A stretch of 64,000 bases of DNA from Lophium mytilinum (lineage: Eukaryota). The notes beneath the pieces were generated by a model. That model did no database searches. It worked only from the letters and a program-made list of their open reading frames with translations, and was not told where the DNA came from. Positions 6,259-54,603 of the stretch are shown here, piece by piece; the stretch's first letter is position 1, and each line of letters begins with the position of its first letter. The DNA is taken from positions 1,557,520 through 1,621,519 of the forward strand of contig MU004193.1 in NCBI GenBank assembly GCA_010093605.1. The letters run 5' to 3'. The translations under genes and the position numbers were made by a program.

Positions 6259-9192
6259 ATGGATGCTTCCGCCCCACTCCCGCCTGCAGCTCCGCCATCT
6301 GCTGACGAGAACGCCGCGAGGATCAAGAGGGCCAACCAGGCCTGTCTGAATTGCCGAAAGCGCAAGTCGCGATGCCTCTTGTAAGTCCGGACGTTTTACA
6401 TTCTGCCCGAATAGCGCATGTATGGTGTTTCTTCAGGCGCGGACGGGCTCTGAAACATCCCAAACCTAGCGTCTATCATTGCGTATCTTTCGATAGATGG
6501 AGCATGCTTCGTAGAGCTCTTAGGCGACTTATGCACAGTCAAAGCGCCATGGCTATTATGTTTATGCCGCTGCGAGATAGTCAACATGTACTAATGTATA
6601 TACTACTATAGAGACGTGGATGGCACAGTCCCCTGCCTCCGTTGCAAGCGCGATAACCTCGAATGTGTACTCGGCGGCTCCAATCGAGGTGGCCGACGGG
6701 TGCGCCGCAAGACCCTCGATCCCCAAATTCTACCCTCCCCCTACAACCAAGAAGACGCAGGCTATCACGGCCTAGGGAATGTCGGGACATGGACAACACA
6801 ACCCAATGCGCAAGAGCGGGCCGCAGATGGATCCCACCAGCGGCCAGACGATCAAATGCCGCGGTCCGGTTCATCTTCCACCCAGGACGACATCTCATTC
6901 CCGAACCTACAAAATCCTTCAGATGCCCTAGGAATACTAGCAAGAGTCGCGGAGACCAGCACAGGCGACAATACAGGCATTCAAAATGGACACCGGCTTG
7001 CGAATACAATGGCACATCGCAGGGAACCGTCTCTGGCGCAACAGATGTCGTACCGGCTTTTGGATTTGGGGATCCTCACCATTCCCAGAATGATGGACCT
7101 GCTTATGCGCTACCGTCAACATTATCACCCTTATTACCCTCTGGCTGCCCCACATGTTTTTGATCCGAGACGGCTAGCGGAAACAGTTCAACGCGATGTG
7201 CACCTATTGACTGCTATACTGCTCATATCCTCGAAGGACCTTGTAGAAGAACCTCAAATATACGAGTCGTGTACAGAATATATGAAGACGCTGGTGTCCG
7301 ATCTCGCCGCCGGTGGAGACGCAGACGTCGAAGCTGTCGAAGCGCTTTTGATTCTCGCAGAGTGGGCACCCTACACGCAGCGCGCCTCCGGAAAGGTAGG
7401 CCGGGGAGAAGAAGATAAAGAAAGTTGGATGCATGTAGGGCTAGCGCTCCGGATTGGCTACTTTTTAGGTCTTGACAAATACTCTTTCCGAGTAATTGAT
7501 GATGGGAAAGATGTCCAGCATAACCGCAAACGTCTGGTCTGGACAGCCTGCTATATATCAGATCGACAGATCTCGATTCGAATTGGCAAGGCATTTTGGT
7601 CTAGAGGGTACGTAAACCTTCTCGTTATTTGTTCATTATTGCATGCGTTCGCTATAGGAGTATTCCATGAGAGTCCATCAATCGCACTATCAGCCACTCC
7701 ATGGACCCTCCACACTACCATCCAATCGAACCATTGTCTCTAGCCGCATCGATTGAACTACAAAACATATCAAGAAGCTTGAGAGTCACATGTCCACGTC
7801 TTTATACCCAGCTTACACCTATGTAAAATAATAATTTGCATCCTGTCCCTGAGCTGTTGAGATCACTTTCATCATGAGTCCCATAATGTCTTCGTTGTTT
7901 GTGTTCTCTTCGTAATGTCTTATATCCATACGAATCATCTAACGTCTGCTAGACCTGGCCCTTTGACTACGCTTCGCCGTGAAGATTATCCGGCCCTTTT
8001 GCCAGAGAGCCCGAACGAGGAGGACTACGCAAGCATATTCCAGGCTACCCTCGAATTGACACAACTTTGCAGTAATGTCCACGATGTCCTCTATTCAAAT
8101 CCGGGGTCGAGTTTCAGGTCGCACCTCAGCGGGGGCTACATCAAATTCATTGACGACTTCCGGTCCGCTATTTACGGATGGAAAAGCGTATGGGGAACTC
8201 TGACCTGTACGTCCCCTCTAATCTCTCCAAACTATCGGCAACTAATCCAGCCCGCAGGCTCCCCCCAACTAAAAGCCACTCTTTTAATGTCCTACGACTA
8301 CCTCCGTCTCTACACCAACGCCTTCGCCTTCCAAGCCACCGTCCGCCGCGCCCTCCCCACCACCAGCACCGGGTCTTCCACCCTTCCCAACCCAGCCTCC
8401 CCCAATACCTCCACCCATCCACACCCAAACCCCCCTCCGCCGTCTAACCACTCTATTCAGGCCCCCTCGCGCGTCTTCTACAATAACGTCGCCAGCGTCG
8501 GCGATGCCCGATTCATCTATGAAGGCCTCGACGCCGCCAAAGCCATCCTCAGCACGGCCAACAACTTCGTCGACCCCGAAAAATCCCTGCGCTTCATGCC
8601 GCTGCGCTTTTACCTCTACCTCGTCTACGCTGGCGTCTTCCTATACCGCGCTCGCTGCGTCGGCGTCATCGGTGCTGACGAGGAGCGCGCCGTCCGCGCC
8701 ATGATTCAGGAGACTGTCTCTCGTCTCCAGCGCAGCGCTGTGGGCAACGGTACCGGCAGCGGCCTCCAGCACCCGGGGAGTCGCTACAGTCAGCTGCTGA
8801 AGTTGCTTTGGGCGAAGGTTGGAAGGAAGGATCGCGCGCGAGCTGCTGCGTACCCGGCGAGCGGTTCGCAGCCGCATCATGCGGCGCGTGGGAGTGTTGG
8901 GGAGAATGCGCTCCCACAGACGCCGGGCATGTCGAGGCCGCCGCCCAGTCAGGCTGGGAGCGTGACAACCGGGGAGAGCCCAGCGGTGACGGAGCAGATG
9001 GGGGATTTCAGCTGGACGGATCTTATGGCGGTAGGAGAGTTTGCGATGGGTGGGGGGCAGGGGACCCAGCAGGCGCAAGGCGAGGATGGGGGGTTTTGGG
9101 GAGTGAGCTTTTTGCCAGTGGATATGGGGTTGGGCGGGCAGGCTATGGGTTGGGAGAATGGGTTTGATGGGGAAATGGGGATGGCGTTTTGA
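6259..9192 (+). CDS. Zn(II)2Cys6 transcription factor with fungal TF middle-homology region (Aro80-like)
   Basis: Exon 1 from ATG 6259 gives ACLNCRKRKSRC; intron 6381-6611 joins to PCLRCKRDNLEC, completing the six-Cys cluster; RLVWTACYISDRQISIRIGKAFWSRG-PGP across an intron at approx. 7608-7952; short in-frame intron near 8207-8257. Confidence 0.88.
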
Positions 9193-10495
9193 GGGGGAAG
9201 GGCCTCAGGAAATTAGAGTGGGTGCTGGGTGCTGCCGACTGTTCTAAGAAAGGATATAAAGCGGCTACTCAGCTTATAGATATAACCTAGATAGTTCCTT
9301 TTAATCTCTCCACCATCTACCCCCCTTACCAGCCCTACAAACCCTCTAACACTCACCATCTAACCCATTGCCAAGCCCCACCATCTCCAGCCACCTCACT
9401 CACCCCTCCCCCACGAAGCCTATTGCTAATTAGAAAATCCAACCTATAATCCTCCCGTGTCATGTCCCCTCCCATGCTGCCCCGAAAATTTTCCCGCCCC
9501 CCTCCCGCGTTCCCGCGGCGGTGCCCAGCCTTCCTATCACGCCACCAGTCAGCCGCTCCGCTCCGCCGCGCCGCCAACATCTCAAAGTCGGGTTCTAGAT
9601 TGCCATCTCGGCTACTATCGACTCAAGGATGCAGATATCGAACAAATCCCGCATGCTTTGGTGGAAGGCGCTGCTGGGGTGTCGGGATGCCGAGTTGGGT
9701 AGGATGGGACGAGGGTGCGGCTAGAGGAGGGTGAAGAGGGGTTACGGTGCCTGCAAGGGCTTGTTGGGTTTGGGGAGGTCTATGAAGTGAAGGGGATGGA
9801 GTGTGATGTGTGATGTGTTCTTTAAGATTTGAGGTGGATAGGTGGAGGATGAGTTGAGACGCAAGGTGAGTTTTGAACAGTAGGAATCGAGATCAGGGGT
9901 GTTTTGACTAGATGGAAATGGTGGGTATATGGTTGGTCCTTAGCTACGAATCCTGCTTTACTACTGACTGACGCTGGCAACGTCAGTATCGCTATAGTGG
10001 ATAATACGATAAGGCTGTGTGAAAGACATGGGTGTGAAGAGAGTCTGAGAGTCAAAGAAAGTCAACAAAATCTAGCACCTCTTCCCCCACGCTTCCCTAC
10101 CACTTTGTCATTCTGTCACAACATTGTAGTCATGGTGTAGCAGCTCTAGGCTATCCTTTTCCCCTCCATCTCGCCGAACCCTCGCGCTAGGCTACTCAGC
10201 ATTCTCGTAAATCTGGGTTCTGGGGTGCAGGAGTCCGTCTAACGTTCTCTAGCGCCGTGAACTCTTTCCTCTCCGGTCAAGATGTGTCAAGTTAGTTGAT
10301 TGATGCAGTCATCTTACTGCTAGTATCACGACGCTGTAACCAGATCCCTTCTTCATACAAGACATGCCAAGTCGCTTTACAGCTCCACCCAGGCCTTTGG
10401 GAATCGGAAGCAACTCCTAAAATACCCCTCTGCTTCGACCGAATGTGGTAATGCTATAAGCGAAACTACCGTGCTAAAACGCTTCACGTGGCCAG

Positions 10496-12041
<1,546 letters not shown>

Positions 12042-12288
12042 CTAGTTAACTGTATTCTAACATGTTATACCATACCAACTCAAAGTCTTCTTGCTTGAAT
12101 GCAGATTAGTCGATCTATGATCTCTTTCCTAATGGTTAGTTTCCTGGTGTGATGGATGATGTTTCACATTGGATGAAAATCGCGAGCTCAGCTTAATCGG
12201 TGAATATCTCATCACTACATTGTATTACTAGTCACGCTGTCACGTCGGTCTCATCAGGTACCTCAACACCGCGCCACCGCGCATCCTC

Positions 12289-12690
12289 CTATCTACTTGA
12301 CCTCTTAAGCCTTCATATCACCGCTTATCCCCTCAGCTACGGGTGCATCGGATGCGCTAATTGTTTCATCAATAGGCGGGCTTCAGATGGCCGACAGCAC
12401 TTGGCGGTTTCTCGACCTCTTTTACGATCGTTCCTGACACAAATTTCATACCACTGTTCTAGCAGTCCCTAGAGAAGCGTCAGTCGCCGCGTGCCCACCT
12501 CGAATAGCCCGCCCGAAGTTTATGCTGGTTTAGATGAGAACGAAAAAGAATTTGACTCAGAAAGGAACAAGCGCAGTCACATCACGTGATGTTACTTTCG
12601 ACCTCTTTTGAAGCTGCAAAGATCTCATATCTTTGGATGCTTTCGCTATTGGACGCTTATCGATCTCGGTCTAGGTTATTTAGCTTGTAA
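12289..12690 (+). repeat. Diverged direct repeat, copy 1 (pairs with 15868-16216)
   Basis: Colinear shared blocks: ctcttaagcc-tt(c/t)atatca, tgcatcggat, ctcgaatag, gcccgcccgaagt, tagatgagaacg, ctcagaaag, atcacgt(g/a)atgttactttcga, tctcg(g/a)tctaggt. Confidence 0.85.
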
Positions 12691-12751
12691 AGCTCACATT
12701 ACAGCCACTAAGACATTCAACATATCATTACTGGTGTCTTCAACACCAACG

Positions 12752-13054
12752 TCACACAAGTTCCAAATGCCCCCTTTCGCCGACCTGGTTAGAAACCCTC
12801 AGCAAATCCCACGATAACGTCTTATCTAAACAGAAATAGCCTGCTCTCTTATACTGCGGCAAGTCCCCTAGCAAACGCCTCACCATGATACCATGAAGGC
12901 GCCATGCGTTCGCCGATGCCTTCTCGATTGAAACAAGGGGTAAGAAGGCTATGCCCTCACATCTACCAAAGTCTACAGGCCCATCCGGGAGCAACGTGAA
13001 TCTCGAGTCCTTGAAATCGTACAACTGTCCCTCAAGTTTCAGCGTACCATACAA
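12752..13054 (-). pseudogene. Probable C-terminal remnant of a HET-family gene
   Basis: Short ORF without an ATG start, ending ...LHGIMVRRLLGDLPQYKRAGYF, which resembles the G-l-v-l-r...Y-x-R-x-G-x-F tail of many HET proteins; no N-terminal HET domain; lies directly downstream of the intact HET gene. Confidence 0.35.
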
Positions 13055-13193
13055 GATGTTATCTCCCGGGCCCTAAACACCCAACTACCCAGTACTGCAA
13101 AGGACCATCATATCTCATCCCATGATTTAGCTTCTCCTCACGCTTTCCAAACCTCTTGGTAATTTTATCACAATACTGTAGTCATGCGCCGCC

Positions 13194-15521
13194 TCACCGC
13201 AGTCCGAAAATTTCCCTTTTACTCGCTGAAGAGTACCACTTGCCGTCCATGACATCGTGGATATAGCAGGACCCAACCAGTTTGTATTCATTACGAGTCT
13301 TCATCGGTCTTAACACGTAAGGTATCGTCGCACGGCTCAATACCACGACGATGTCATTCTTTTGCATCGATCCAGGCCCGATACCAAAGTAACCCTCCCA
13401 AGTATAGAATATACGTCGTCCAAGAAGTCTAATCTCGGCTAGTCGTGCATAGTGAGTTTCTGTGAAGTCGTGTTTGTGCACTGAGATGGAAAAATCGTCT
13501 TGATAACGTCCGTACAATCCATGGAATACCTTACGGCGAAGATCCATAGCACATTTGTAGTCCGGATTCGTAAGTTCTTCCCAGAAAGAGCCTCCTTCTT
13601 TTGTGTAGTCGGGGTCAAAACGTTTTTGAAAAGTGTATTTAAATTTTTTCAACATGGATTTCATAAACGTTAAAAACTCTATGTTCAATGCAGACTCAGT
13701 GTTCTCGTACACAGGCTGTTGATCATCCAGGAGTCCCTGTATAAGAGTAATGGCCATACTTCGAATTTGCGACTCTCGATCTTGATTTCTCTGTCGATTG
13801 GCCTGGTGTATTCTGAACCAAAGCTCTAAAATCTGATGCGTTGCATCCTCTTCATCCGTTGAGAAACTATTCAACAGTCTCCCATTTCGATGAGGTTCTA
13901 GCAATGCACCGGCATGGTCGACAGTGTCAAATTTGCGTCCGACAACATGGAGCGTATCTTGGGTTATTCTCGCGGGTTTTCCCGCTTTATAATCCCCACA
14001 GGCGGACCAGAGATTTAGCAAGCGTACATCTAGCGATGGACTATCCTCGTTCCATAGTGGTACCCAAGAAGGATGATCCGAGTCCGTTGATTCTGCTGCG
14101 GCAAGGAGGGAAAGATCTCCAGTCGTCTCGATAATACTTTTCGCTGCATCAAAATAGACATCAAAGATGCTCTTGTCATAATTCGGTATCAAGGATGAAG
14201 TGTTGACTTTCCAATCAATCAGACCCAATAGCGCATACACCTTATCTCGTGGATTAGTTGCTTTCCGATGTCGGAAGTCGGATAGAGCATATAGTAGTCC
14301 CCTGGGATCCGAATCCAAGTGATACCGTGTTGTGCTCAGGGTGTCGTAAACGCTACGCACTGCCTTATGCTCTTCTTCCCCCCAGAGCTGACGCACATCC
14401 ACCTCTTGCTCAAGCCACCATGGAATCAACGGCATGATACGCTTCCAGGGAATTTTGGATGGTGGATCACAACCCAAAAGCACAACGGCATCCTGAGCGA
14501 GAACAATCTCTTGAACACACCATATTCTTGTGAACCAAGCGTCTTGAATGAAACTTAGGAAGGCTTCTATCTTTTCCGAGTTTTCTACCACTTTCTTGGC
14601 CAACTTTTCCTTGAGCGCCTCTGGTCCTGCGTAGACTTCTTCCGGCAGAATTAATGCTGACTTGATGGATTTCCCAGCCCCTCGAAGCTTTTCCATCAAT
14701 TCCATAGCTTCAATCGTTATTTCGGGCCCGTGATACCAGTGCTTGTAGGTAATGGACACTACGACTCGCGAAGCCTCAGAGTAGATGGTTTTCATAAGCT
14801 GCACTTGCCCGGTTTTCTCATCGTTGTCATCTTGATTGATACAAACGTAATCGATCCATAGGAGACGTCTTTCGTCTTCATAACGCAGTTGCTTCAACGC
14901 AAAAAGGAGGTTTGGAGTGACATCAATGCGGTAACCATCGCAGAGAATTGGCTTCAATTTGGTGCTTGTTCCCCATACATACGAAAGCGCTTCGTAAGCA
15001 GGTAGATTGTCGGTTTCGTGTACCACCAGCTTGCATTCGATTTGTGCATCTACTTTCCCAGGTAAAATGACAAGAAGTCGGACTTCGTAGCCGTTGAGCC
15101 GCTTTGTGTACATGTACATCGGTACAGGTTCTCGACGTCCACTGGGCAATGTGTTTGTAGCCATGATAGACCGGGATGGAACCTTGCTAGGAACTGGCGC
15201 CAATGGCTTTGACGGTTGTCGCAAGGGAGTTAAAGTAGCAGGCTTCAGTGTCCCATTGGAATCGTGCGACTTGGGCGATTTGGATGCCTTTGGTGCAGGA
15301 GGCTCTTCAGGTAGAGGATTTGGATTGGAAAGCTCTTCTGCCGTGATGGAACCCAGCAACTCCAAAGGTTTGGACGCCCTTGGGGCAAACGGCGTAGCCT
15401 CGCCATTGAAGCTTTGGGTGCGGACGGAATTTGAAGCTCGCGGAACGAAATCCTTGACGGCTGCATCAAGCTTGATCGTCGAAGGAACGAAAGCACTCGC
15501 TTTGGGATTGAGATAGCTCAT
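13194..15521 (-). CDS. HET-domain protein (HET-6-like), 775 aa, with N-terminal PAM2-like motifs
   Basis: Intronless ORF: EVRLLVILPG, YEALSYVWG, LWIDYVCINQDDNDEKTGQVQLMKTIYSEA, WFTRIWCVQE, ATNPRDKVYALLGL, PSWVP, GYFGIGP...DIVVVL...PYVLR...LVGSCYIHDVMDG. Confidence 0.93.
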   Translation of the reverse strand: MSYLNPKASAFVPSTIKLDAAVKDFVPRASNSVRTQSFNGEATPFAPRASKPLELLGSITAEELSNPNPLPEEPPAPKASKSPKSHDSNGTLKPATLTPLRQPSKPLAPVPSKVPSRSIMATNTLPSGRREPVPMYMYTKRLNGYEVRLLVILPGKVDAQIECKLVVHETDNLPAYEALSYVWGTSTKLKPILCDGYRIDVTPNLLFALKQLRYEDERRLLWIDYVCINQDDNDEKTGQVQLMKTIYSEASRVVVSITYKHWYHGPEITIEAMELMEKLRGAGKSIKSALILPEEVYAGPEALKEKLAKKVVENSEKIEAFLSFIQDAWFTRIWCVQEIVLAQDAVVLLGCDPPSKIPWKRIMPLIPWWLEQEVDVRQLWGEEEHKAVRSVYDTLSTTRYHLDSDPRGLLYALSDFRHRKATNPRDKVYALLGLIDWKVNTSSLIPNYDKSIFDVYFDAAKSIIETTGDLSLLAAAESTDSDHPSWVPLWNEDSPSLDVRLLNLWSACGDYKAGKPARITQDTLHVVGRKFDTVDHAGALLEPHRNGRLLNSFSTDEEDATHQILELWFRIHQANRQRNQDRESQIRSMAITLIQGLLDDQQPVYENTESALNIEFLTFMKSMLKKFKYTFQKRFDPDYTKEGGSFWEELTNPDYKCAMDLRRKVFHGLYGRYQDDFSISVHKHDFTETHYARLAEIRLLGRRIFYTWEGYFGIGPGSMQKNDIVVVLSRATIPYVLRPMKTRNEYKLVGSCYIHDVMDGKWYSSASKREIFGLR

Positions 15522-15867
15522 GTTGAGAAATATAGAGCAGAAACTGCAACTTTGACGTAGATGGGCAGGGAGATTTCAGCTGGGGCTGTGTTGCAACTGA
15601 GTAGGCAACAGCGAAGAACGCGATGAAGGTAACCACCGCAATCGAAATCTAAAGGAGCAAGGCTAAGCGTCTGTAATTTTCTATTTCGAATTCGCTGGTA
15701 TGTTTGAAGATGTCTGATCTACGTGCGAATGGCATTTGTATTCCTCTGAAATCGCCTTGCCAAATCTGAGGTGGTGAAGAAGAAGATGTTGACCTGCTAC
15801 GGCGGTTGTTCTGTTATGCTTGGATGCACGTCAGCCTATATGTATGCTGATCTATAAAAGCGAATAT

Positions 15868-16216
15868 CTATCTAGTCTAACTCTTAAGCCTTTATATCAG
15901 CACTAATCCCCTTAGCAACAAATGCATCGGATTTTCACTGTGTTCCCTACTAAAGATTTCATTGCCGTATAAGCAGTTGCCAAAGGAGCGTCAATCACTG
16001 CGTGTTCATCTCGAATAGATACCTAGAACCTGCCCGCCCGAAGTCTATGTTATTATAGATGAGAACGGAGAGCATTTCAGCTCAGAAAGATGCGGACGCA
16101 GCTGTATCACGTAATGTTACTTTCGAACCCTTTTAAAGCAATATAGATTTTATATCTTTAAGATGATTATTCTTTTAAGGGTTTAACGTCTCGATCTAGG
16201 TAGCTTAGGTGGTAAA
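15868..16216 (+). repeat. Diverged direct repeat, copy 2 (pairs with 12289-12690), with RIP-like transitions
   Basis: Same block order as copy 1, with several C>T/G>A differences (cttcatatc>ctttatatc, cctcagc>ccttagc, cacgtga>cacgtaa, tttgaagc>tttaaagc) and indels. Confidence 0.85.
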
Positions 16217-16493
16217 TTGACTTTCTGGACTTACGCGATTAAAGAGGCCCTAAATCCGTGACCCGGGATAGTTTTGAGCCCCCTAGCCACGACTTCACAT
16301 ATTCTGGCGAAGTGTATCTAACTCTGCATCTTATCCTACTTTGCCGACTCAACAACAAGATCATTTCTTCAAACCAAGCCATGCCAAGCCCCTCTACAGG
16401 TTGTTGAGAAGCGGAAGCACCTCCTACCCCGCTATCCATCACTCACTCAACCAAGAAAGGCATAAAAAAAGCTCTGGCAGAAAAAGAAAAGAA

Positions 16494-16967
16494 ATGTCAA
16501 TGTCAAAACTAACCAACCCACCACCGATACCGGCCAGCCCTCCCCCAACACAGCTCTCAACACACATGCAAAATCTGCTGAAAGGTCTAGACTTACTCAC
16601 TCGTTCGTTACTATCACCACCCGCTCACTATCGCGCGCCTTGGTACGCTGACGGGCTAGACCCACATCTCTACCAAGCCCCAACCGCGAACTCCCTCTTG
16701 GCAGAGCGACTTCTAGAAATTCTAGAGCACCAGCTCTCCTCGCGCTTCCCGCGTCACAGCGCCCGCCCGAGATGGGCTGAGAAACGCATCACTCCACTCA
16801 CAAGGCGTCGGCGTCCTCGCTCGCTCGCTACCCCCTCCCCCGCCGTTAGACGCAGATATGCAAGTCATTTTCCGCTCGGGGAGGTCCAGCCGTTCGAGTG
16901 TGGGCGGCGTGGCTTGGCGGGGTGGCCACCTTTCCCCGTCTCGTTACGGGTGATATGCCCAACCTAA
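16494..16967 (+). CDS. Hypothetical protein (uncertain)
   Basis: Open frame from MSMSKLTNPPP with helical-looking segments (MQNLLKGLDLLTRSLL, LAERLLEILEHQL); no recognisable domain. Confidence 0.25.
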   Translation: MSMSKLTNPPPIPASPPPTQLSTHMQNLLKGLDLLTRSLLSPPAHYRAPWYADGLDPHLYQAPTANSLLAERLLEILEHQLSSRFPRHSARPRWAEKRITPLTRRRRPRSLATPSPAVRRRYASHFPLGEVQPFECGRRGLAGWPPFPVSLRVICPT

Positions 16968-17891
16968 CATCCACGGTGTCGAAACCTTGTCTGATCGAGT
17001 AGTAGGTTTGTTGTGCGACAAAGCGCACCCCACGTTTCGTAGAACCCAACCTCGCGCCTTCGGGCCTTGAGAGTTCCGTCGGCGTGGCTGGCGGGTATAG
17101 CTTGTCAGGGCGCGGGGCGCGATAACAAGGGCTGAGGATGTTGCCCCTCAGCATGTTGCGTGCGAAAGAGCGGGGTCGTGTCGGCCGAGCGCTGACATCA
17201 TGCATCATGAGGCTGCCTTGCTGCCCCGCTTTCGAAAAACGTGGTGGTTTTGATTGGGGCGCGTCTGGGCGATCAATGGGTTGCGCGACGATGAAGGATG
17301 AAGGAGTACAGGGGTGGATTACCACTTTTGGGGGATGCTCCAGAGAATTGGGTGGAGATGTATGGGAGCGGCGAAGATAGGATAGGGAGGGTTGAAATAG
17401 GTGTCTTGATAGAAAGCTGGTATAGAGATGAAGCTTGATAGCACTTGCATATAGAAGAGAAGTTGGAATGACATTTCAACGTTCATTACGAATATATACC
17501 AGTGTCCCAGCAATAATAATGAACCATTTCCATGCCCCTACTGTATTGTAGTTCTCCCCTGTATCCGTCTTTCATCTACAATAATCGCGACAAGTGAGGG
17601 CATTTGAAAATCATGTAGTGTACTCCAGTTCCCAACTAAACCAGCCTCGGATATCAGATGCTCTCGAATCCGAGGTCTTTTGCCTTCCCCATGAGCGCCT
17701 CTTCCAAACAACACCGAACATGTAATCCGTCGTCTCTTCGGGATCAATCCAAAAGGGTAAAATAGAATCTCGAGATAAAAGCAACACAACGCCACTTATG
17801 CAGATGAAGCATATACTGCTGTGACAACTCAAGAAAAGGAGGCGAGCTTGGGTTCCTCGTATGTATGTGTAGATCAGAAAAACTGGGTTGT

Positions 17892-20000
17892 CTAGTTCCA
17901 GCCCTCACCCATATCGAAGCGATGTTGGAGCGCCTTGGCCACACGCCTCTCTGGCTTCGGCGGGATGTGGCGATGGAGATGTTTCTTTCGCTCCATCATC
18001 TTGGAAGAGCCCTTCTTAGCTTGCGATACGTCGATGCAGCAAGTCTGGTCCTCGAAGCTGTCGGGACAGCAGCACTCGATGTTCTTGAAGTAGGAGAGTT
18101 TTACGATGTCGCGGACTGGAATGCGCTTTTCCGGGATGGGGTGCAACATCTTAAGGAGGAGACGTTTGATGGGAGGTGGGCCAATGAGGCCAAAGAGCAT
18201 GCCACACTTGGGGTAGCCGTCGTCGCCCTCAGTGAGTTGGCCGTCGGGGTGGTTCTCGAGCCATTTCGTCCAACCAGCCTCGAATTTATCATAGTTGCCG
18301 CCATCCTTCTGGGCACCGTCCCAAGGACAGCCCCCGCAGGTCATGGTTAAGTAAACAATGGCACAAGACCAGACATCCAGAGGACGAGGATCGTAGCTCC
18401 TTCCTTTGATGAGAACTTCGGGCGCAATGTAGGGCATACTCCCACAGATTCCAGATGCCGATAATCGCACTTCGCCCATGTTCTTTCCACACTCTCCTCC
18501 TGCAGCTCGAAGGCCTGGATGCTCGCCACTGAAGACCTCAGCAACACCGAAATCAGAGATCTTGAGATGTCCGTCTTTGTTCAGCAGTAGATTCTCTAAT
18601 TTGATGTCCCGATGAGCGATGCCGTGGCTGTGCAGGTAGTCGACTCCACGAATCAGCTGCTTGAAGAGGCAGAGGCGGTCGGTTTGAGAGTAGTAGCCAT
18701 CCGAGGCAAAGAGCTTCCGGTCGACCAGAGAGTAGATCTCGCCGTAGTTGCAGTATTCCATGACGTGATTCCATTTTCCGTTGTGATAGCACAGACGCAC
18801 CGTCTCCACGATGTTCGGGTGGTGCAAGCTCTTGGCGATGCAGTACTCGGACTTGATCTTTTTGATGTAGTCGTCTTCGCTCTCGTTTCTTTCCCGATTG
18901 CGGAACTCCTTCACGGCCACCAGCTGCTCTTCACCATTGGCTGCTTCTTTTCGTGCCATGATACGCACCTGTGCTGTTGCACCTTTTCCCAGCAGCTTTC
19001 CACGCTTTCCAGGCATCAGACTCGAGCTTTTGAACTCCTTGTCTAAGTCCACGTGGTCCACGTTGAATTCGTTGGGTAGGCTCGTGCTCAACCGGCGAGC
19101 CTTCATGCCCACGCCTTCGGCTGCCCTCTGCGTGAGAATGTTCGCCGTCAGGCCAACAGTGTTGTCATCCTTTGCGACGTGCGGAATATGGTCGGTTGAC
19201 GCGGACCGTTCCCGCCTGGGGTGCCGCAGTGACTTGCTCCCCCCCCTCGCAATATCAGGGGGGAAAGTTATGCCTTGCCGTGGTGAATTCATGCCGTTGA
19301 GAGCAGTAGACGACTGCGAGTGTTTCGAACTCTTTTCCATGTCCCGCGCCGGGTCGTGCGAAATAGTGCTCGAAGGCGAGCTGGGCGAGGGCGGGGTGTT
19401 GGACTGCGAGGACTTGGGCGTGTTCCGGCCCGAGAGGGAGAAGGAGCTCATGCGACGGGTCTTGGGCATGAGTGCGTTGCCGTTGCTGTTCTCGTTGTTG
19501 CTGACGCTGACGTCAGTTGTCGTTACGGAGAGTTGCTGCGGCGGCTCGGCAGACGGGGTGCGGTGGAGTTTATTCCGCACGAACGAGCCCACACGCTTCC
19601 CCAGACCCTGTCTGGGTTGCTGCGCCGTCTCCACGGAGGTATAGGTCTGCGAGCGCGGAGTCGGCTTGGGTCGCGCAAGGGTCGCTGTGAGAGGACGTAG
19701 CTTCGTCTCAGCGCGAGGCATCTCAGCGGCGGCGGTGTCGACGACGTCGACGGCTCCGTCGTGGTCGAAAGGATGTGGGGAGGTATCGCTGGTGGGTGTA
19801 ACGGGCTCTGGGGGCTCGCTTGCGGTTTCGTTGTTTTCGTCTTCTTCGGGGATGGGTGTTTGGCAGTCGATCAGACGGGAGTCTCTGAAGTTTTGGACCT
19901 CCAGGTGGGCGTCCACGAGCTCACTCTTATGGCCAGTCGATGGAGCTAGGCCGGAGAGGCCTTGAGGCTCGATCAGCGGCTGGGTTTGGGTGGAAGCCAT
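17892..20000 (-). CDS. NPR/HAL-family (Hal5/Ptk2/Hrk1-like) Ser/Thr kinase, 702 aa
   Basis: Likely start MASTQTQ (ATG at 20000); long Ser/Pro-rich N-terminus; GKGATAQV, VAVKEF, EYCIAKSLHHPNIVET, HRDIKLENLLL, DFG, GICGSMPYIAPE, YDPRPLDVWS. Confidence 0.9.
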   Translation of the reverse strand: MASTQTQPLIEPQGLSGLAPSTGHKSELVDAHLEVQNFRDSRLIDCQTPIPEEDENNETASEPPEPVTPTSDTSPHPFDHDGAVDVVDTAAAEMPRAETKLRPLTATLARPKPTPRSQTYTSVETAQQPRQGLGKRVGSFVRNKLHRTPSAEPPQQLSVTTTDVSVSNNENSNGNALMPKTRRMSSFSLSGRNTPKSSQSNTPPSPSSPSSTISHDPARDMEKSSKHSQSSTALNGMNSPRQGITFPPDIARGGSKSLRHPRRERSASTDHIPHVAKDDNTVGLTANILTQRAAEGVGMKARRLSTSLPNEFNVDHVDLDKEFKSSSLMPGKRGKLLGKGATAQVRIMARKEAANGEEQLVAVKEFRNRERNESEDDYIKKIKSEYCIAKSLHHPNIVETVRLCYHNGKWNHVMEYCNYGEIYSLVDRKLFASDGYYSQTDRLCLFKQLIRGVDYLHSHGIAHRDIKLENLLLNKDGHLKISDFGVAEVFSGEHPGLRAAGGECGKNMGEVRLSASGICGSMPYIAPEVLIKGRSYDPRPLDVWSCAIVYLTMTCGGCPWDGAQKDGGNYDKFEAGWTKWLENHPDGQLTEGDDGYPKCGMLFGLIGPPPIKRLLLKMLHPIPEKRIPVRDIVKLSYFKNIECCCPDSFEDQTCCIDVSQAKKGSSKMMERKKHLHRHIPPKPERRVAKALQHRFDMGEGWN

Positions 20001-23000
20001 GGCAATTCTTGGCGGTTGTGGGGATGCTGCGGTGGTCTCAATTGCGATCTGCAGGCGTCTGCATAGGCTGTGTAACCGTTTCAAGCTGCGGCGACACGGA
20101 TTCGGAGTGCTGCGGTTTGACACCAGCCTGGGCGGTCTTGGGACTCTCACTACGCGCGTTGTAACGGACTGGGGCGGTGATAGGCAGAGGCTAGGGTCGC
20201 GGAGCAGAAGCGTATGGCGGGGACGATGTTGAGGGTGTTGTGGGCGTGTTGAGTGGGTCGCAGTCGTTTTGAGGCCATACAAGTGCTATATCGTGTCTAG
20301 AAGCTGTTCTATGGGCGTCGAGGAGGTTGTATTTGTACTGTGCAGCAGTAGAGGTTGTGGGCGAGCCGCATCAGAGCGCGCGGGTCTGCGAGCCTTTTAC
20401 GCCGGGGGCGGCAATGGGTCTGTTTCCACGATAGGCGTAGCTTGCCCAGCCAGATCCAAGCCCTTTGACGTATGGCCGGGTAGCAAATGCCGACCACGAG
20501 ACGCAGCGGTTGAGATTATTATGGAATCGGCCTTTCGCGACAGCGAGCTTCGGGCTCTTCGGTGACGGTTGGTGCTCGGTGACTCGAGTTTTGCAGTGCT
20601 GCAACAGCCGCGTCAAGAGCACTGGCGGGCAGCCGGCCGCTTTAAAGAGGCCGCGATGAGGCTTCACACGCTTCAGACGCACCCCACTGCACGACTCCAG
20701 TAGCTCTCCGAATTTCGCGCAATTGCAGATGATCGATAGCCGGGATCGCATGCCTCGCCGGGACTGCTGCTCGAACCGCGCCCCTCGCCGGCTTGCCCGA
20801 AGTAGCCGCCTGGCAGCGCGCTACGGTTATGTAACTCAGCGCCGACGACGGCTGCAGCAACACCTGCAGCCACGGCTTCAAGGCAGGAGCAGGAGAACGA
20901 CCCGAAGCTGAGAGATCGTGGCCGTCTGTTTGGGTGAGATGACGCTGCGCGATTTTATCCCGCCTACAGCCTGCTCTCCACTCTTCTCCTGCACACATCT
21001 CTCAGACATCGCCAGCCTCTCAGCAGCCTCTCAGCATGTACGCACGCCTAGGACCTGACCGACTGTCTGCTGATGCTCCCTTGCCGACACTGCTACGCTT
21101 CACACCCTCGCCGGATTCCGACTATGCCATGCAGCGGCGAACTCTATGTATGCTGTGGACTCCAGGCCCAGCTGGATGCCAGCCCCAGCCGTTTCCAAGG
21201 CTTGTTTCTGGGATCCCGAACGCTCTTTTACCCGCCGTTTGCGACTGGAAAGAAAGGCGTGGGGGCGATGAGGGGTGCCCTGGGCCTTGACGACGGGGGC
21301 ATGAGAACTGCACGTCAAAATAGCTACAACTTGAGCACAGCCAACAGCTTCACCGAAGCTTGTCACCGCTCATTCCAGGGCTGCTGGAGCCCATAACGAC
21401 TGGCGCTGCCCAATTCCGAATGCCCGCCCGCTTCTCGAGCACAGGATCCCCACAGCGCCAGCAATCTCACACCCCGCACATGTTGTGTCGCCAGCGGCCT
21501 CAATCGCAACACAGTCGACGTGACGATGTTCACCGATCAGCGCCCGGACACGGCCCCGACTGCACCCCGAATTCCTTCTTGCCTCGTGTCCGAGGTGTGT
21601 GGGAGAAGCAAGTAGATGGACATGAAGTGCACGCGGAGAAAGCCCCTTTTCCTGCTCGCAATGAGGCTCCGGAGCGCAACCGACTGCTGTATCTAGGTAG
21701 TTGACTGCGTTTTCTAGCATGTGGAGCCAAATCATAACATGTACGAGCATCGTTCGCCCTTCAGCTCTGCCGGTTGCGTTGTGGTCGACTCCCATTCACC
21801 GGTCGATGACTTCCAGCACCCGGCTGGCTGTTTATCCGTTCATCCCCCACAGCTCACCTGCATTAGTGGAGAGCTTACTTCATGCCCTGGAGAGCGAAGA
21901 TGCAAAGATGCCCTCCCTTGAGCATCGCAGGCTGTGATAGGCCCGTGCTTGCGGTTGACTCGTGGGGGAATGTGGGGAGGCGGGCGTACGTGATGCAATA
22001 CCTGCCTGCATATGCAATGCAGACTTTGAAAGGTTTTCCGCACGTGAGTTGTTTCCTCTATTGTCACCACAAGCCGCCAAGGCCGCACAACCGAATGTAC
22101 AGTTCGAGCTTCGGACGCCTCAGAGATGGCCAGAGTCTCATTTCCAGACCTCAACCACGTCTGCAACTCTGGCCCTGGTAGCCAAGAATTCCACCGTGAT
22201 CGCTGCGACCATCCACGGCTGTGCCTTGGGCTAAGACCAGACGCTACCTGGTACCTCACAGCCTCAAGCCGCGTTAGCATTTTTGCGTGCAATCACACCT
22301 GCGAGCGTGTCACCCTGCAACACAAGAACATCAATTGGCCGTGTCCGCCCTTGCCCTAGCGAATCGCCGTCCGAAGATTCATGTGTCTAGCTAGGCTGGC
22401 GCATGCACGCGGCCACCGGCCCCATGCCCGAGCAATAGCATCCAAAGTCACTGGTTTCAGCACGAGCTCCTCAACATTTTCCCGTAGGCCAACAAAGCAC
22501 GTCCGATGATTCGTTCTGATTATCGCCATTTCCTTACAGTACTAGCTCATAAATTTGGTCACTCGGAAACACGACTGCTATAGCTTCCCTATTACTCATT
22601 CGACACTACTGTAAGGAGTGCCGTAAGTAGAATGTCTATAATTGATTCAAGGTAGTGTAATTCTCGCTGTGTCGGCCTTTACGGCGGACTTGGAGTTGCC
22701 AAAGCCTATCGGGGTACCCCAAACATTTGCAAGGAGTGCCCAAATTCATGTCTTGGTACTGTACTTCTTCAACAGTCGTCATCAGGAAACGCGTAGACCT
22801 CCACTCCCGAAAGTCGGTGCTTGGCAAATTCTGGAGATACACATGTGCTCTAGCTTTATCCTCTATACAGCAGCTCGGGCATGTGTCAGCCGATCCGTAT
22901 AGTTTCGGTGTCCGAATCCAAGCGCGGCTTACCTACATACACGCAGACTCGATGGTACTTCGCCGCCCGATTATCTATACGTCCACACGCATACCAACTC

Positions 23001-38436: not shown

Positions 38437-40258
38437 TTTGGGTGATCATATGATTTTAGAAATCTAGAAATCGAAATGGAAAGACAAAAGCAAATCTAAC
38501 CGAAAGCTCTAATGGATGAATGGAAGGTACTTTGGTACTTTCAACTTGCAGCATGATTCTCATATGAACATATACAAGGGTACGAGGATAGAACACATAC
38601 CAAGAGATTCAATCGCTGATTAGTATGCAAGCCTGCGCTGTGTCATATACGGTATTACCAAGCGTAGAGAAATTCGCTTGTGCAAGGGACCTCGAGTATA
38701 TGATAGGACTCTAAATAAATGCCAAGATGATCGGCATAAGCTTATGGTGGTATTACCTCCTGTCAAGCTCGGAACAATCCGCTTGCGTAGGGGATTTAGA
38801 GTATACGATAAAGGAATAACCGGTGCCTTTTTAGTTGCCGTATTATGAGAAACCGTAGTGATCGGCACGACTTCGTCATCTCTATTCTTCTCTAAAGTAG
38901 GGTGCATGTATACGTATGCATACTACTGTCTATGAGTGTCTTCACAAGGTGTTGGGCGACGTTTTGCTAGATTTGACTGAATTGGCAGAAGACACACGAT
39001 GGCGGCATAAAGTTCTCCCTTTCACAAGATAGGCGCTTGTCTTTATCAAAATTGGCAAGTAATTTTCCCTATGACTCTGACATGTCTTGCGCTAGAAAGT
39101 AATCAAGATTAGTAAATGATGTAAGCCACAAATGCTTCGGATTTAACGTATTCTGTCCGAAACGGAACTGAAGTAGTTATTGGATATTTGTCATCGAAGA
39201 GTCGAAAGGGCATGGTTAAGTTCTGTAAAGGTAGAGGTAATAATTCTCATAAAGCTCTCTGCGAGCTCGGTGGACTTTACTTACCCTTGCAGTTACTAAT
39301 TCCTGCCCAGGCCTCGTGTCTGGCTGCGGGATTGCTGGTTCAGTTATTCAATCTACATAAACCTCTTGCTATTAGTTACTAGAAACCACAAGCACTTGTT
39401 AACGGTTGTAATATCATGCTTGTTCGTGCATCTCGTCGCGCATCGCCTCCAGGTATGGGCCTAGAACTAAGTGAAGGAATTGTCCACAGTAGAAGGCAAT
39501 GGGGAGAAGCATACGCCTTGGGTACTACTTCGTTGCCAATGTCCATACCTGTATCTGTTTGCTGTCAAGCTGCGGGCTTGGGCACGATGCCAGCCGGTAT
39601 GTCCTTTACTCGAAATGCGCCGCAGAGCAAATAGCACTTGACGAGAACTCAATCTCTGCATCGGCCAGTGGCTGATATGAAGCAGACTGTGCAACTGGAC
39701 TAGGACTTGGTTCTGAGGTATCCATTGAGAGTGTATTCTTGGAAGCGCTTGCAAGAGAGACGACAGCACGCGGCAAGTTTAGATGCGGGCGCTGCGATAT
39801 CAGAAGTTACAATTCAAAGCTGTGTATTTATTCGATTTAGATTGGATTTTGATTCCATTTGTATGCATAGGATGTGGTAGATGCGGTTGTGGTTGTGGCG
39901 ATGAAAATCATTTTTGTTGCCCGGCCAGCGGCGTTTGTTGTTTCAGTTTCGTCATCCCCAGCCTCCTCCGTTCAACCACCTCCATTTCGCTCCCAAACCC
40001 CCCAACCACCACGCATATCAGTACCGCCACAAGGCTAAACCACCTTTTCTTTTACACTCAACATTCGTACTGCATTGCACGTCTGACTAAAATTTAGTTC
40101 CATCCTTCGCATCGTCAGCACCGCCTTCTCGAAACTTCAAGGCCGGCCTTCATTCCGACTCCACGACCGACTGCAAACCACATTCCACCACCTGAGCCTA
40201 GGCTCAAGCCTTCGGGCAAACCAAATTCCCCCAACAATCGCTCCACGAGAAACACACC

Positions 40259-41698
40259 ATGGCGCCCCTCCCAGCATCCCTCATCTCTCTACTCCCTCGC
40301 AGCCTCATCTCCTCACCCACATCGACAACCGACCTAGACCCACGCAATCCATCCGAACTCTCACCCATCGCCATCCATGATCTCCACCACCACCTCTCCA
40401 AGCGAGCCCAAACTGGCGACTTCGGTGCAGGTGTCAAGCCAGCCAACGAGATCAACAATGTCGGCTTCCAAGTCCTCTTCGCCCTCATCGGCGTCGGCAT
40501 GGTCCTCGGCAGCATCTGGTTCTTCTTCTGGGCCAAGAACGGCGGCTTCAAGTGGAAGAAAGACGACTGGGACGACTACAAATCCACCGTGCTACGACGC
40601 AAGGGACCAGACGGAAAGACACTATCCAACGCAACCAAGAGCACGAGACTCGGCGGCGGTAGCGTAGTTCACGGGGGCAGCTACGGCAACACCGAGACGG
40701 TCAGCGATGGCTACACGGACGAGACCGCTACATCGGCAGACCCGAACGAGATGCGGGAAGCGGAAGCTGGCCAGCGTCATGGGTTCGGCATCCGTGGCGG
40801 CAACGGCCGCAAGCAACGCAACGAGAGCAGCTCCAAGCACAAGGACCCCGAGCTGCGTCAGTATCGCCACGAGAAAGCCGCTCGAGTGGGCGGGCTGAAC
40901 CGCGCCTATGACGGCACCTACCACGACTACTCCAACAGCTCCGACATCTCGACACAACCTCTGACGCAGCCCAAGAAAACCGACAAGAAAGCCCAAGATA
41001 AACGCGCCAAAGAAGCCAAACGCTCCGAGAAGAAAGCCCACGCCGCTGAAGAAAAAGCACGCAAGGAAGCCGAGAAAGCGAGCAAGAAGAGCAAGACTCC
41101 TAAGGCTACCAAGCAACCCGAGATGGCCGCTGCCGTTGTCCTCGCCGAACCCGCTGGATCTTCTGCCTCTCGACCTGTGGGCGCGCCTGCCTCTGTCCCA
41201 CACCCTGACGCTCTCCGCGCCGCTCGCCGCGCCGCCCCGTCAGCTGCCTACTCTTTCATCTCCGGCGACGACACCAACACTGTTTACACAGGGGCCTACA
41301 CCGCGCCTTCCGCACCATCGGAGGCTGACAACTCGTATTACTCGTCCTACCGCCCGCACGCGGCAGCTCAATCTCAGCCGCGCGATCGTGAAGCCCGCCC
41401 TGCATCGCACTCGCGTCATTCGTCGCCGCGCAAGCAACATCGGTCGTCGCGCCAGTCACCGGCTGCGTCTGATATCTTCAGCGACGGCACTCAAGATACG
41501 GGCACCAAGAGCTATCCTTGCTACATCCCCGGCCTCAGCGCTGGGAGTGTAGGCGTGAGCGAGAGCGTGAGCCAAGTTGGTGGACGGAGTGAGAGACAGG
41601 GGAGGGAAAGTCCGAGGAAGGGCAGGGACGTAATGGACGGATACCGCCGTGGCGGAGTACGGGGTCGTAGGGACAGCTTGAGCGACAGCGACTCGTGA
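40259..41698 (+). CDS. Hypothetical single-pass membrane protein, 479 aa
   Basis: Intronless ORF with C-ending codon bias; one TM (VLFALIGVGMVLGSIWFFFWA), then DWDDYKSTVLRRKGPDGKTLSNATKST; Lys-rich segment and disordered tail. Confidence 0.85.
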   Translation: MAPLPASLISLLPRSLISSPTSTTDLDPRNPSELSPIAIHDLHHHLSKRAQTGDFGAGVKPANEINNVGFQVLFALIGVGMVLGSIWFFFWAKNGGFKWKKDDWDDYKSTVLRRKGPDGKTLSNATKSTRLGGGSVVHGGSYGNTETVSDGYTDETATSADPNEMREAEAGQRHGFGIRGGNGRKQRNESSSKHKDPELRQYRHEKAARVGGLNRAYDGTYHDYSNSSDISTQPLTQPKKTDKKAQDKRAKEAKRSEKKAHAAEEKARKEAEKASKKSKTPKATKQPEMAAAVVLAEPAGSSASRPVGAPASVPHPDALRAARRAAPSAAYSFISGDDTNTVYTGAYTAPSAPSEADNSYYSSYRPHAAAQSQPRDREARPASHSRHSSPRKQHRSSRQSPAASDIFSDGTQDTGTKSYPCYIPGLSAGSVGVSESVSQVGGRSERQGRESPRKGRDVMDGYRRGGVRGRRDSLSDSDS

Positions 41699-54504: not shown

Positions 54505-54530
54505 ACACACACACACACACACACACACAC
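54505..54530. repeat. (AC)13 microsatellite in the 5' region of the secreted-protein gene
   Basis: Perfect AC dinucleotide run. Confidence 0.95.
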
Positions 54531-54603
54531 GAAAATTGCTACTCAAGAACATAGAGTCCTCTTCTTTTGACAAACGTAGCCACATAACCTACCACTCCTC
54601 AAC

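What the first reader, a model, noticed from the sequence alone, without database searches (positions are those of the whole stretch)
15372..15521. HET cell-death-family protein with three tandem PAM2-like (PABP-binding) motifs
Seen: the first 50 aa read SYLNPKASAFVP, IKLDAAVKDFVP and QSFNGEATPFAP. All three keep the L/F-x3-A/V-x2-F-x-P spacing, and a Pro/Ser-rich linker then leads into a complete HET-6-like protein. Established: PAM2 (xxLNxxAxxFxP, as in PAIP2, eRF3, Ataxin-2) binds the MLLE domain of poly(A)-binding protein and of fungal Rrm4-type mRNA transport proteins; HET domains are fungal regulated-cell-death effectors related to TIR domains. Inference: this effector may be tethered to mRNPs or stress granules, guard PABP, or couple non-self/antiviral sensing to translation shut-off. 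I do not know of a described PAM2-HET architecture.
Basis: partly seen in the sequence, partly recalled or inferred. Interest (0 to 1): 0.85.

Follow-up and report, generated by a model that had tools for sequence, protein, structure and literature searches.

The report
HET death protein with PAM2 repeats
A fungal cell-death (HET) gene carries, on an unusual floppy front end, three copies of the short peptide that other proteins use to dock onto poly(A)-binding protein, hinting that this death effector sits on messenger RNA, although binding is untested and no relative shares the feature.

Summary
Observation confirmed. The intronless 775-codon ORF 13194-15521 (-) begins with SYLNPKASAFVP, IKLDAAVKDFVP and QSFNGEATPFAP (aa 2-13, 16-27, 36-47). 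Three matches to this spacing never arose in 200,000 shuffles. The body is a complete HET-6-type protein (Pfam HET 99.5 bits; family blocks). Residues 1-126 are predicted disordered. Pfam PAM2 sees only motif 1, at its threshold (22.0 bits for aa 1-60, 12.0 in the whole protein). Motifs 2-3 fit only the key positions. None of 120 listed homologues has the motifs. The N-terminus has no detectable relative among 1.84 billion proteins, and there is no orthologue to test conservation. Spliced RNA contigs cover the start region without a gap, but their strand is unknown. Homologues start where our M135 lies, so a downstream start remains possible. Best reading (0.4): a lineage-specific HET effector docked multivalently on Pab1. 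Rrm4 is not a candidate in an ascomycete. The scan had earlier noted triple-PAM2 proteins in giant viruses, on other DNA, but no PAM2-HET. New variant of a known kind; interest 0.5.

The parts
13194..15521 (-). Single-exon ORF of 775 codons plus stop: a HET-6-type HET-domain protein with an N-terminal extension (P0001)
   Evidence: in-frame TGA upstream at 15578-15576
15483..15518 (-). Motif 1, aa 2-13 SYLNPKASAFVP. It has all five key positions of xxLNxxAxEFxP (L3, N4, A7, F10, P12)
   Evidence: Pfam PAM2 PF07145 on residues 1-14: 20.1 bits alone, 22.0 bits within aa 1-60, 12.0 bits in the whole protein. Consensus taken from passages of PMC4466420
15441..15476 (-). Motif 2, aa 16-27 IKLDAAVKDFVP. 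It keeps L3, F10 and P12 and an acidic residue before F; it has D for N4 and V for A7
   Evidence: regex match; no Pfam hit alone
15381..15416 (-). Motif 3, aa 36-47 QSFNGEATPFAP. It keeps N4, A7, F10 and P12; it has F for L3
   Evidence: regex match; no Pfam hit alone
15144..15380 (-). Pro/Ser/Lys/Ala-rich linker, aa 48-126, predicted disordered
   Evidence: pLDDT under 50 for residues 1-126; composition
13197..15131 (-). Folded body, aa 131-775. It begins with the family's usual start block (MYMYTKRL..EVRLLVILPG, M135)
   Evidence: pLDDT 80-98 from about residue 131; alignment A2
14508..14996 (-). Pfam HET domain, aa 176-338
   Evidence: PF06985, 99.5 bits, E=2.9e-28, full profile 1-146. Weak TIR-like structural matches over 172-402, Z 4.4-6.5
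15576..15578 (-). In-frame TGA that closes the frame upstream of ATG 15521
15950..16022 (-). Minus-strand intron (GTATCT...TTTAG) seen in an RNA contig upstream of the ATG. It is either a 5' leader intron of this gene or read-through from the upstream kinase gene
   Evidence: joint 15949->16023, CT..AC on the + strand; splice sites

Best explanation
The ORF encodes a HET-6-type regulated-cell-death protein: a TIR-like HET domain followed by a helical and beta-rich C-terminal part. In this lineage it has gained a disordered N-terminal extension of about 130 residues. The first 47 residues of that extension carry three PAM2-type short linear motifs. [quoted passage not shown] This would place the HET effector on polyadenylated mRNPs. 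Shown here: the ORF, the HET identity, the motifs and their non-random clustering, the predicted disorder, and transcription of the region. Inferred: translation from ATG 15521, MLLE binding, and the consequence. That consequence could be sequestration or positioning of a death effector on mRNPs, surveillance of Pab1, or competition with other PAM2 partners.
For: HET identity: Pfam HET 99.5 bits. 243 homologues at E<=1e-3; the 120 listed all carry PF06985, and most also PF26639. The conserved blocks YEALSYVWG, LWIDxxCINQ, ATNPRDKVYALLGL, PSWVPLW and the C-terminal GYFGIGPG..VVVL..PYVLRP are all present. Motifs: the Pfam PAM2 model matches residues 1-14 at 22.0 bits (E=1.2e-4) for aa 1-60 and 20.1 bits for aa 1-20, against a cutoff of 20. 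Motif 1 has L3, N4, A7, F10 and P12 of the consensus xxLNxxAxEFxP (passages of PMC4466420). Motifs 2 and 3 keep the hydrophobic position 3, F10 and P12, the residues that enter the MLLE pockets (passages of PMC11572963). Three matches in 47 residues arose in 0 of 200,000 shuffles. Context fits a linear motif: residues 1-126 have pLDDT 28-49. [quoted passage not shown] Coding: the 152 codons between the upstream stop and M135 are stop-free only in this frame. That happens in 0.34% of mononucleotide shuffles, in 1.8% of first-order Markov sequences of the same composition, and in 0 of 5,000 with the composition of the upstream non-coding DNA. ATG 15521 has A at -3 (CAACATGA). One RNA contig spans 14863-15579 without a gap or joint, so no intron removes the motifs.
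Against: Pfam does not detect motifs 2 and 3, alone or together. In the full protein the PAM2 score is 12.0 bits, E=0.19, below the cutoff. None of the 120 listed homologues has PF07145 or an N-terminal match to the pattern; the one match among them is at residue 379 of P0062. phmmer of aa 1-60 against 1.84 billion representatives found 0 proteins at E<=1e-3. The word search of aa 1-60 gave 7 candidates, none at E<=10. So there is no evolutionary conservation to show selection on the motifs. Homologues start 10-45 residues before the block that corresponds to our M135: the YxALSYxW motif sits at median position 53 in the 112 of 121 proteins that have it, against 176 here. A start at M120 or M135 would therefore give a canonical protein. 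The strand of the RNA contigs over the start is unknown, and a spliced plus-strand RNA overlaps the 3' end of the gene. If the leader reaches beyond 15735 it holds upstream ATGs. None of four start variants of the ORF is in the 15-billion-protein collection, although the neighbouring kinase's model is. MLLE binding was not measured or modelled.
Confidence: 0.4

Rival explanations
1. The extension is translated, but the motifs are not MLLE ligands. It is a young, fast-evolving disordered tail. Its FxP repeats are a by-product of internal duplication, or they bind some other partner or serve none.
For: Only motif 1 reaches the Pfam PAM2 cutoff, and only marginally and out of context. Motifs 2 and 3 share F[VA]PRAS, which suggests duplication rather than three independent hits. 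There is no conservation anywhere. Among the 112 of 121 proteins that have the HET motif, 8 have even longer pre-HET regions than ours and none of them has the motif, so N-terminal tails come and go in this family. A pattern as short as PAM2 is expected a few times per proteome by chance (my estimate, not computed).
Against: Three copies that all keep the pocket residues in register, within 47 residues of a disordered terminus, arose in 0 of 200,000 shuffles. No DNA-level repeat shows a recent duplication, so the copies have diverged while keeping the key positions.
Confidence: 0.25
2. Translation starts downstream, at M120 (MATNT) or M135 (MYMY), and gives an ordinary HET-6-type protein of about 640-656 residues. 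The upstream 119-134 codons are then leader sequence, or are used only in a minor isoform.
For: Homologues begin just before the block that aligns with M135-G157. M120 has a good context (TATCATGG). The full-length protein is absent from the public protein collection in all four start variants tried. If the leader is long, its upstream ATGs already imply leaky scanning or reinitiation.
Against: An open frame of 152 codons upstream of M135 is improbable by chance (0.34-1.8%; 0 of 5,000 with the upstream composition). ATG 15521 is the first ATG after the in-frame stop and has A at -3. An RNA contig runs from inside the body through the ATG to 15579. The M135-start and M120-start variants are absent from the collection too.
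Confidence: 0.22
3. The gene is a dispensable or decaying member of a large, fast-turning-over HET family, and the whole N-terminal feature is without consequence.
For: HET genes are very numerous and variable in copy number, and only a few are known incompatibility genes (passages of PMC10890737). The C-terminal block deviates from the family consensus: ND for GD and SRA for GG. There is no orthologue; the best hit is 29-39% identical. A second HET ORF in the window looks truncated.
Against: The 775-codon frame is intact. All invariant family columns listed are present in P0001. The model folds confidently (293 residues at pLDDT>=90, pTM 0.75).
Confidence: 0.08

Closest known systems
HET-6 / BH (het-B) type HET-domain proteins of Pezizomycotina (non-NLR HET proteins)
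   Same: HET domain near the N-terminus followed by a family-specific middle part and a variable C-terminal part. Single exon, roughly 600-680 residues for the folded body. All conserved blocks are present (architecture as described in passages of PMC10890737).
   Different: In those proteins the HET domain starts at residue 1 or close to it. Here a disordered extension of about 130 residues precedes it and carries PAM2-type motifs that 0 of 120 listed homologues have. The nearest homologue, from Trematosphaeria pertusa, is 611 aa and only 29% identical.
Upa2 of Ustilago maydis (multi-PAM2 scaffold of endosomal mRNPs)
   Same: Several PAM2 motifs in disordered sequence, one at the immediate N-terminus. 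Multivalent binding to the Pab1 MLLE was shown for Upa2 (passages of bioRxiv 10.1101/455378).
   Different: Upa2 is a 2121-aa basidiomycete scaffold with a coiled coil and a GWW motif, and it has no death domain. Its motifs are conserved among orthologues; ours have no orthologues to compare. No sequence relationship was found.
Classical PAM2 ligands of the PABP MLLE domain (Paip2, eRF3, ataxin-2, Pan3, GW182, Tob)
   Same: Motif 1 fits xxLNxxAxEFxP at L3, N4, A7, F10 and P12 and matches Pfam PF07145 at its cutoff. Two adjacent motifs are known in eRF3 and Tob.
   Different: A replaces the usual E before F in motif 1. Motifs 2 and 3 are degenerate. Three separate copies in 47 residues is unusual. 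The fused domain is a cell-death effector rather than a translation or mRNA-decay factor.
Giant-virus proteins with three tandem PAM2 motifs
   Same: Three PAM2-type motifs in a short disordered stretch, read as multivalent PABP docking.
   Different: Those are small viral proteins on other DNA and are themselves unchecked AI notes. Ours is a cellular death effector. They bear on the guard idea only as a lead that viruses may aim at the MLLE groove.

Membership tests
HET domain family (Pfam PF06985), HET-6-type architecture | Match to the HET profile above Pfam's gathering score | tested here: met
   99.5 bits against a cutoff of 22.5, residues 176-338, profile 1-146 of 146
HET domain family (Pfam PF06985), HET-6-type architecture | Family blocks along the whole length (YEALSYxWG, WxDxxCINQ, ATxPRDKVYALLGL, PSWVPxW, C-terminal GYxGxGP...VLxG..PxVLR) | tested here: met
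   Alignment A2 with 47 homologues. P0001 has all 16 invariant columns, with small deviations in the last block
HET domain family (Pfam PF06985), HET-6-type architecture | Second family domain PF26639, which most homologues carry | tested here: inconclusive
   PF26639 is precomputed for most of the 120 listed homologues. The Pfam copy I could scan did not report it for P0001 even at E<=10. BLAST coverage of 78-85% by many homologues and the C-terminal blocks in A2 argue that the region is homologous
HET domain family (Pfam PF06985), HET-6-type architecture | TIR-like fold of the HET domain | tested here: inconclusive
   VIA-align against 48,161 chains: residues 172-402 match at Z 4.4-6.5. 13 of the 50 rows shown are TIR or ThsB domains (SpbK 5.8, MyD88 5.6, SARM1 5.6, MAL 5.5) and at least 6 are nucleoside 2-deoxyribosyltransferases. 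The tool warns that Z under 8 may be a common arrangement. Foldseek on the whole model: 0 matches at E<=1e-3
HET domain family (Pfam PF06985), HET-6-type architecture | Induces regulated cell death | not testable with these tools
   Needs expression in a fungus
PAM2 motif (Pfam PF07145), ligand of MLLE domains | Match to the PAM2 profile at or above the gathering score (20 bits) | tested here: inconclusive
   Whole protein 12.0 bits, E=0.19: not met. aa 1-60 22.0 bits, E=1.2e-4, and aa 1-20 20.1 bits: met at the margin, for motif 1 only. aa 15-53, holding motifs 2 and 3: no hit
PAM2 motif (Pfam PF07145), ligand of MLLE domains | Key positions of xxLNxxAxEFxP: L3, N4, A7, F10, P12 | tested here: met
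   Motif 1: 5 of 5. Motif 3: 4 of 5 (F for L3). Motif 2: 3 of 5 (D for N4, V for A7). F10 and P12 are present in all three (consensus from passages of PMC4466420)
PAM2 motif (Pfam PF07145), ligand of MLLE domains | Lies in an intrinsically disordered, accessible region | tested here: met
   pLDDT 28-49 over residues 1-126, no secondary structure apart from a 3-residue turn. The alignment has no depth there, so low confidence is partly expected
PAM2 motif (Pfam PF07145), ligand of MLLE domains | Conserved among orthologues | tested here: not met
   0 of 120 listed homologues has it. aa 1-60 has no relative. But the best homologue is only 29-39% identical, so there is no true orthologue and the test has little power
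PAM2 motif (Pfam PF07145), ligand of MLLE domains | Binds an MLLE domain through the motif's Phe and Leu | not tested
   An MLLE alignment was prepared (A1, 43 domains, Pfam MLLE 107 bits), but the complex job could not be run
PAM2-like (PAM2L) ligands of Rrm4 MLLE3 | FxY core flanked by acidic residues, and presence of Rrm4 in the organism | tested here: not met
   All three motifs have FxP, not FxY, and lack the acidic run (definition from passages of PMC11572963 and PMC4466420). Rrm4 is most likely absent in Ascomycota, and the window is dothideomycete-like

The most novel reading that the evidence does not exclude
[quoted passage not shown] When a mycovirus or another invader cleaves, displaces or crowds Pab1, or competes for its MLLE groove, the effector would be released or clustered on poly(A) tails. 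It would then trigger cell death or translational arrest. This would be a non-NLR, linear-motif-based way of wiring fungal innate immunity to the translation machinery.
Probability: 0.12. Interest if true: 0.85.

Novelty: new variant of a known kind. Interest (0 to 1): 0.5.

Why it matters
How HET domains are controlled and what most of the hundred or so HET genes per genome do is unknown; this is stated in passages of PMC10890737. A HET protein with a recognisable docking peptide for a named, conserved host protein would give a concrete, testable partner (the Pab1 MLLE domain). It would also suggest that short linear motifs in N-terminal tails, and not only C-terminal recognition domains or NLR scaffolds, can direct these effectors. 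If binding holds, it links fungal regulated cell death to mRNPs and translation, a link I did not find in print. If it fails, the case is a lineage-specific tail on an ordinary HET gene.

Tried and rejected
- Complex modelling of aa 1-60 with an MLLE domain. The job was prepared (A1 plus P0001 1-60) but never ran. It was not sent on. The machine gave no usable answer. There is no verdict.
- Relatives of the N-terminus. phmmer of aa 1-60 against 1.84 billion representatives gave 0 hits at E<=1e-3. The word search of aa 1-60 gave 7 candidates, none at E<=10. The ESM Atlas gave no usable hit.
- PDB by sequence. The N-terminal 134 aa hit only a ribosomal protein bL17c (E=1.2). aa 1-30 hit only Ten1 (E=1.5). 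aa 31-50 hit nothing. Solved PAM2 peptides are mostly shorter than the 20-residue floor of that file (recalled).
- Foldseek of the whole model against the PDB: 0 matches at E<=1e-3.
- DNA-level tandem duplication behind the three motifs: no convincing repeat in 15100-15600.
- Whole genome: none is held for this window. Earlier notes near this place: none.
- Sequencing runs: no RNA holder is listed as such. The one holder, X1, is labelled 'RNA?'. Its contigs carry spliced joints.
- The bin 13812-14212 has no contig cover. I draw nothing from it.
- Rrm4 / PAM2L reading: rejected.
- Literature. 'PAM2' with 'HET domain' gave 1 unrelated paper, seen as a search listing only. 'PAM2' with 'TIR domain' gave 131 papers; the 10 listed concern TLR ligands such as Pam2CSK4 or TIR signalling, none the PABP motif. 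'MLLE' with 'heterokaryon incompatibility' gave 0 papers.
- Source annotation. Exact look-up of the ORF from M1, M120, M135 and M137: none is in the collection.
Full report
**What is there.** On the minus strand, window 13194-15521 holds one uninterrupted ORF of 775 codons. The three motifs are SYLNPKASAFVP (aa 2-13), IKLDAAVKDFVP (aa 16-27) and QSFNGEATPFAP (aa 36-47). All three fit [LF]x3[AV]x2FxP. ATG 15521 is the first ATG after an in-frame TGA at 15578-15576.

**Is it more than chance?**
- The pattern occurs 7 times in the six-frame translation of the whole window (127,996 residues). Three of the seven are these motifs, and one of the other four contains a stop.
- In 200,000 shuffles of the N-terminal 134 residues, one match arose in 1.2%, two in 0.004%, and three never.
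- Three matches also never arose in 20,000 shuffles of the whole protein.
- Motifs 2 and 3 are followed by the same PRAS, so the copies probably share an origin. At the DNA level, however, no tandem repeat is left. The copies have therefore diverged while keeping the key positions.

**The protein body.**
- Pfam gives HET (PF06985) at 99.5 bits, E=2.9e-28, over residues 176-338.
- A search of 5.8 billion clusters gave 243 homologues at E<=1e-3. The 120 listed are HET proteins, most of them also with PF26639, of 429-1147 residues and at most 29-39% identical.
- An alignment with 47 of them shows every family block in P0001, from YEALSYVWG to the C-terminal GYFGIGPG...PYVLRP.
- AlphaFold2 on that alignment gives mean pLDDT 74.1 and pTM 0.75, with a confidently folded body from about residue 131.
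- The published remote likeness of HET to TIR domains (passages of PMC10890737) is only weakly echoed here. VIA-align against 48,161 chains matches residues 172-402 at Z 4.4-6.5. 13 of the 50 rows shown are TIR or ThsB domains, and several more are nucleoside 2-deoxyribosyltransferases. The tool itself calls Z under 8 uncertain.
- Foldseek on the whole model found nothing at E<=1e-3.
- A quick tree puts P0001 beside the Trematosphaeria pertusa protein P0002, on long branches.

**The N-terminal extension.**
- Residues 1-126 have pLDDT 28-49 and no secondary structure.
- The stretch is rich in P (23), S (18), A (14) and K (10) out of 134 residues.
- In the homologues the protein begins 10-45 residues before the block Y.Y..L....IRLL.L.PG. 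In our protein that block is MYMYTKRLNGYEVRLLVILPG, starting at M135.
- The YxALSYxW motif sits at median position 53 in the 112 of 121 proteins that have it, and at 176 here. 8 of those 112 have still longer pre-HET parts, and none of them has the motif.

**Is the extension coding?**
- The 152 codons from the upstream stop to M135 are stop-free only in this frame.
- That happens in 0.34% of mononucleotide shuffles, in 1.8% of first-order Markov sequences of the same composition, and in 0 of 5,000 sequences with the composition of the upstream non-coding DNA.
- The start context is CAACATGA, with A at -3. M120 has TATCATGG and M135 has ACCGATGT.

**How PAM2-like are the motifs?**
- The consensus is xxLNxxAxEFxP (passages of PMC4466420). 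The conserved Leu and Phe enter the pockets between MLLE helices 2-3 and 3-5 (passages of PMC11572963).
- Motif 1 has L3, N4, A7, F10 and P12. Motif 3 has F3, N4, A7, F10 and P12. Motif 2 has L3, D4, V7, F10 and P12, with an acidic residue before F.
- The Pfam PAM2 model sees only motif 1: 12.0 bits (E=0.19) in the whole protein, 20.1 bits for aa 1-20 and 22.0 bits (E=1.2e-4) for aa 1-60, against a cutoff of 20.
- aa 15-53, with motifs 2 and 3, gives no hit.
- So there is one threshold-level PAM2 and two degenerate copies that keep the pocket residues.
- The motifs are not PAM2-like (PAM2L) sequences. Those have an FxY core after acidic residues and bind Rrm4. Rrm4 is most likely absent in Ascomycota (passages of bioRxiv 10.1101/467787).

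**Organism.** The neighbouring kinase (17895-20000, minus strand) finds its best named relatives in Dothideomycetes: Lepidopterella palustris at 64% identity and many Pleosporales at 51-60%. Other ORFs in the window are typical of Pezizomycotina. These include a Zn2Cys6 factor, MFS transporters, a WD40 protein and a second HET ORF. The only MLLE protein to expect is therefore Pab1.

**Conservation.** None could be shown.
- No listed homologue has PF07145 or an N-terminal pattern match.
- aa 1-60 has no relative at E<=1e-3 among 1.84 billion representatives, and none through shared words.
- Even a conserved kinase has no relative above 64% identity apart from the window's own model. The lineage is thinly sampled, so the absence of an orthologue says little either way.
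- The ORF itself, from any of four starts, is not in the protein collection, although the neighbour's own model is. It may be unannotated in the source.

**Transcription.**
- One public run (X1, coded, kept as contigs, labelled 'RNA?') holds 71% of the sampled words.
- Laid on 9000-21000 it shows eight joints with canonical splice dinucleotides, so it derives from RNA.
- One contig spans 14863-15579 and another 14509-14865, without gaps or differences. The motif-coding region is therefore present in RNA and is not spliced out.
- Contigs do not tell the strand.
- Upstream, a minus-strand intron (15950-16022, GTATCT...TTTAG) is removed in one contig. This shows minus-strand transcription running towards the gene, either as its own leader or as read-through from the kinase gene that ends near 16235.
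- If the leader is that long, it holds ATGs at 16075, 15927 and 15735 with short ORFs.
- A spliced plus-strand RNA without any long ORF overlaps the last 500 bases or so of the CDS.

**Mechanism.** My best reading, at 0.4, is a lineage-specific HET effector whose disordered tail docks multivalently on the Pab1 MLLE domain.
- The precedent for multivalency is Upa2 of Ustilago. It has four PAM2 motifs, one at the very N-terminus, and its binding grows with motif number. The same text says most PAM2 proteins have a single motif (passages of bioRxiv 10.1101/455378).
- What docking would do is inference. It could hold the effector on mRNPs, let it watch Pab1, or let it compete with other PAM2 partners.
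- The scan's earlier, unchecked notes of giant-virus proteins with three PAM2 motifs (e1-5501053, e1-5510682) are a lead that viruses aim at this groove. I did not test them.
- The rivals are a translated but non-functional or otherwise-used tail (0.25), a downstream start (0.22) and a dispensable family member (0.08).

**What I could not do.** I fetched 119 PABP loci from metagenome contigs with a back-translated MLLE signature. I built an alignment of 43 MLLE domains whose first member is of fungal type (Pfam MLLE 107 bits). Binding therefore stays untested.

**Novelty.** I found no paper joining PAM2 or MLLE with HET or heterokaryon incompatibility. One search gave one unrelated paper, seen as a listing only. 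One search gave none. The 10 papers listed concern TLR ligands or TIR signalling. The library misses most subscription journals. The parts are known; the combination is new. It rests on one gene in one genome, without conservation. I rate it a new variant of a known kind, interest 0.5.

Noticed in passing
window about 12378-13695 (+); introns 12479-12533, 12787-12838 (cut +1), 13389-13442: A spliced plus-strand RNA with three GT..AG introns and no long ORF in any frame. It runs antisense over the last 500 bases or so of the HET coding region, so it is a possible natural antisense or convergent non-coding transcript.
   Followed up: partly
window 15579-16235 (-): RNA contigs continue upstream of the HET start, with a minus-strand intron at 15950-16022. 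Outside that intron the stretch holds ATGs at 16075, 15927 and 15735 with short ORFs. It could be a long regulated leader or read-through from the kinase gene.
   Followed up: partly
window 52662-53645 (-): A second HET-domain ORF (Pfam HET E=3.5e-31, 327 codons stop to stop). Its frame is closed by stops soon after the domain, so it is a truncated paralogue, a pseudogene or an intron-bearing gene.
   Followed up: partly
window 58001-64000: An AT-rich block (GC 24-26%) with strong RIP signatures: TpA/ApT 1.77 and (CpA+TpG)/(ApC+GpT) 0.09, against 0.61 and 1.27 in 40001-56000.
   Followed up: partly
window 17892-20000 (-), RNA contig 16235-20603: A HAL4/SAT4-like protein kinase ORF of 702 codons, covered by one unspliced 4369-nt RNA contig. 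The collection's own model of it is only 482 aa (100% identical over 69% of the ORF), so the public model may be N-terminally short.
   Followed up: no
window 13194-15521 (-): The HET ORF is not in the 15-billion-protein collection from any of four possible starts, although the neighbouring gene's product is. It may be unannotated or modelled differently in the source assembly.
   Followed up: partly
window 12001-16000: The HET gene sits in a stretch of lower GC (0.455-0.473) than its flanks on the high-coordinate side (0.51-0.59 in 16001-22000).
   Followed up: no
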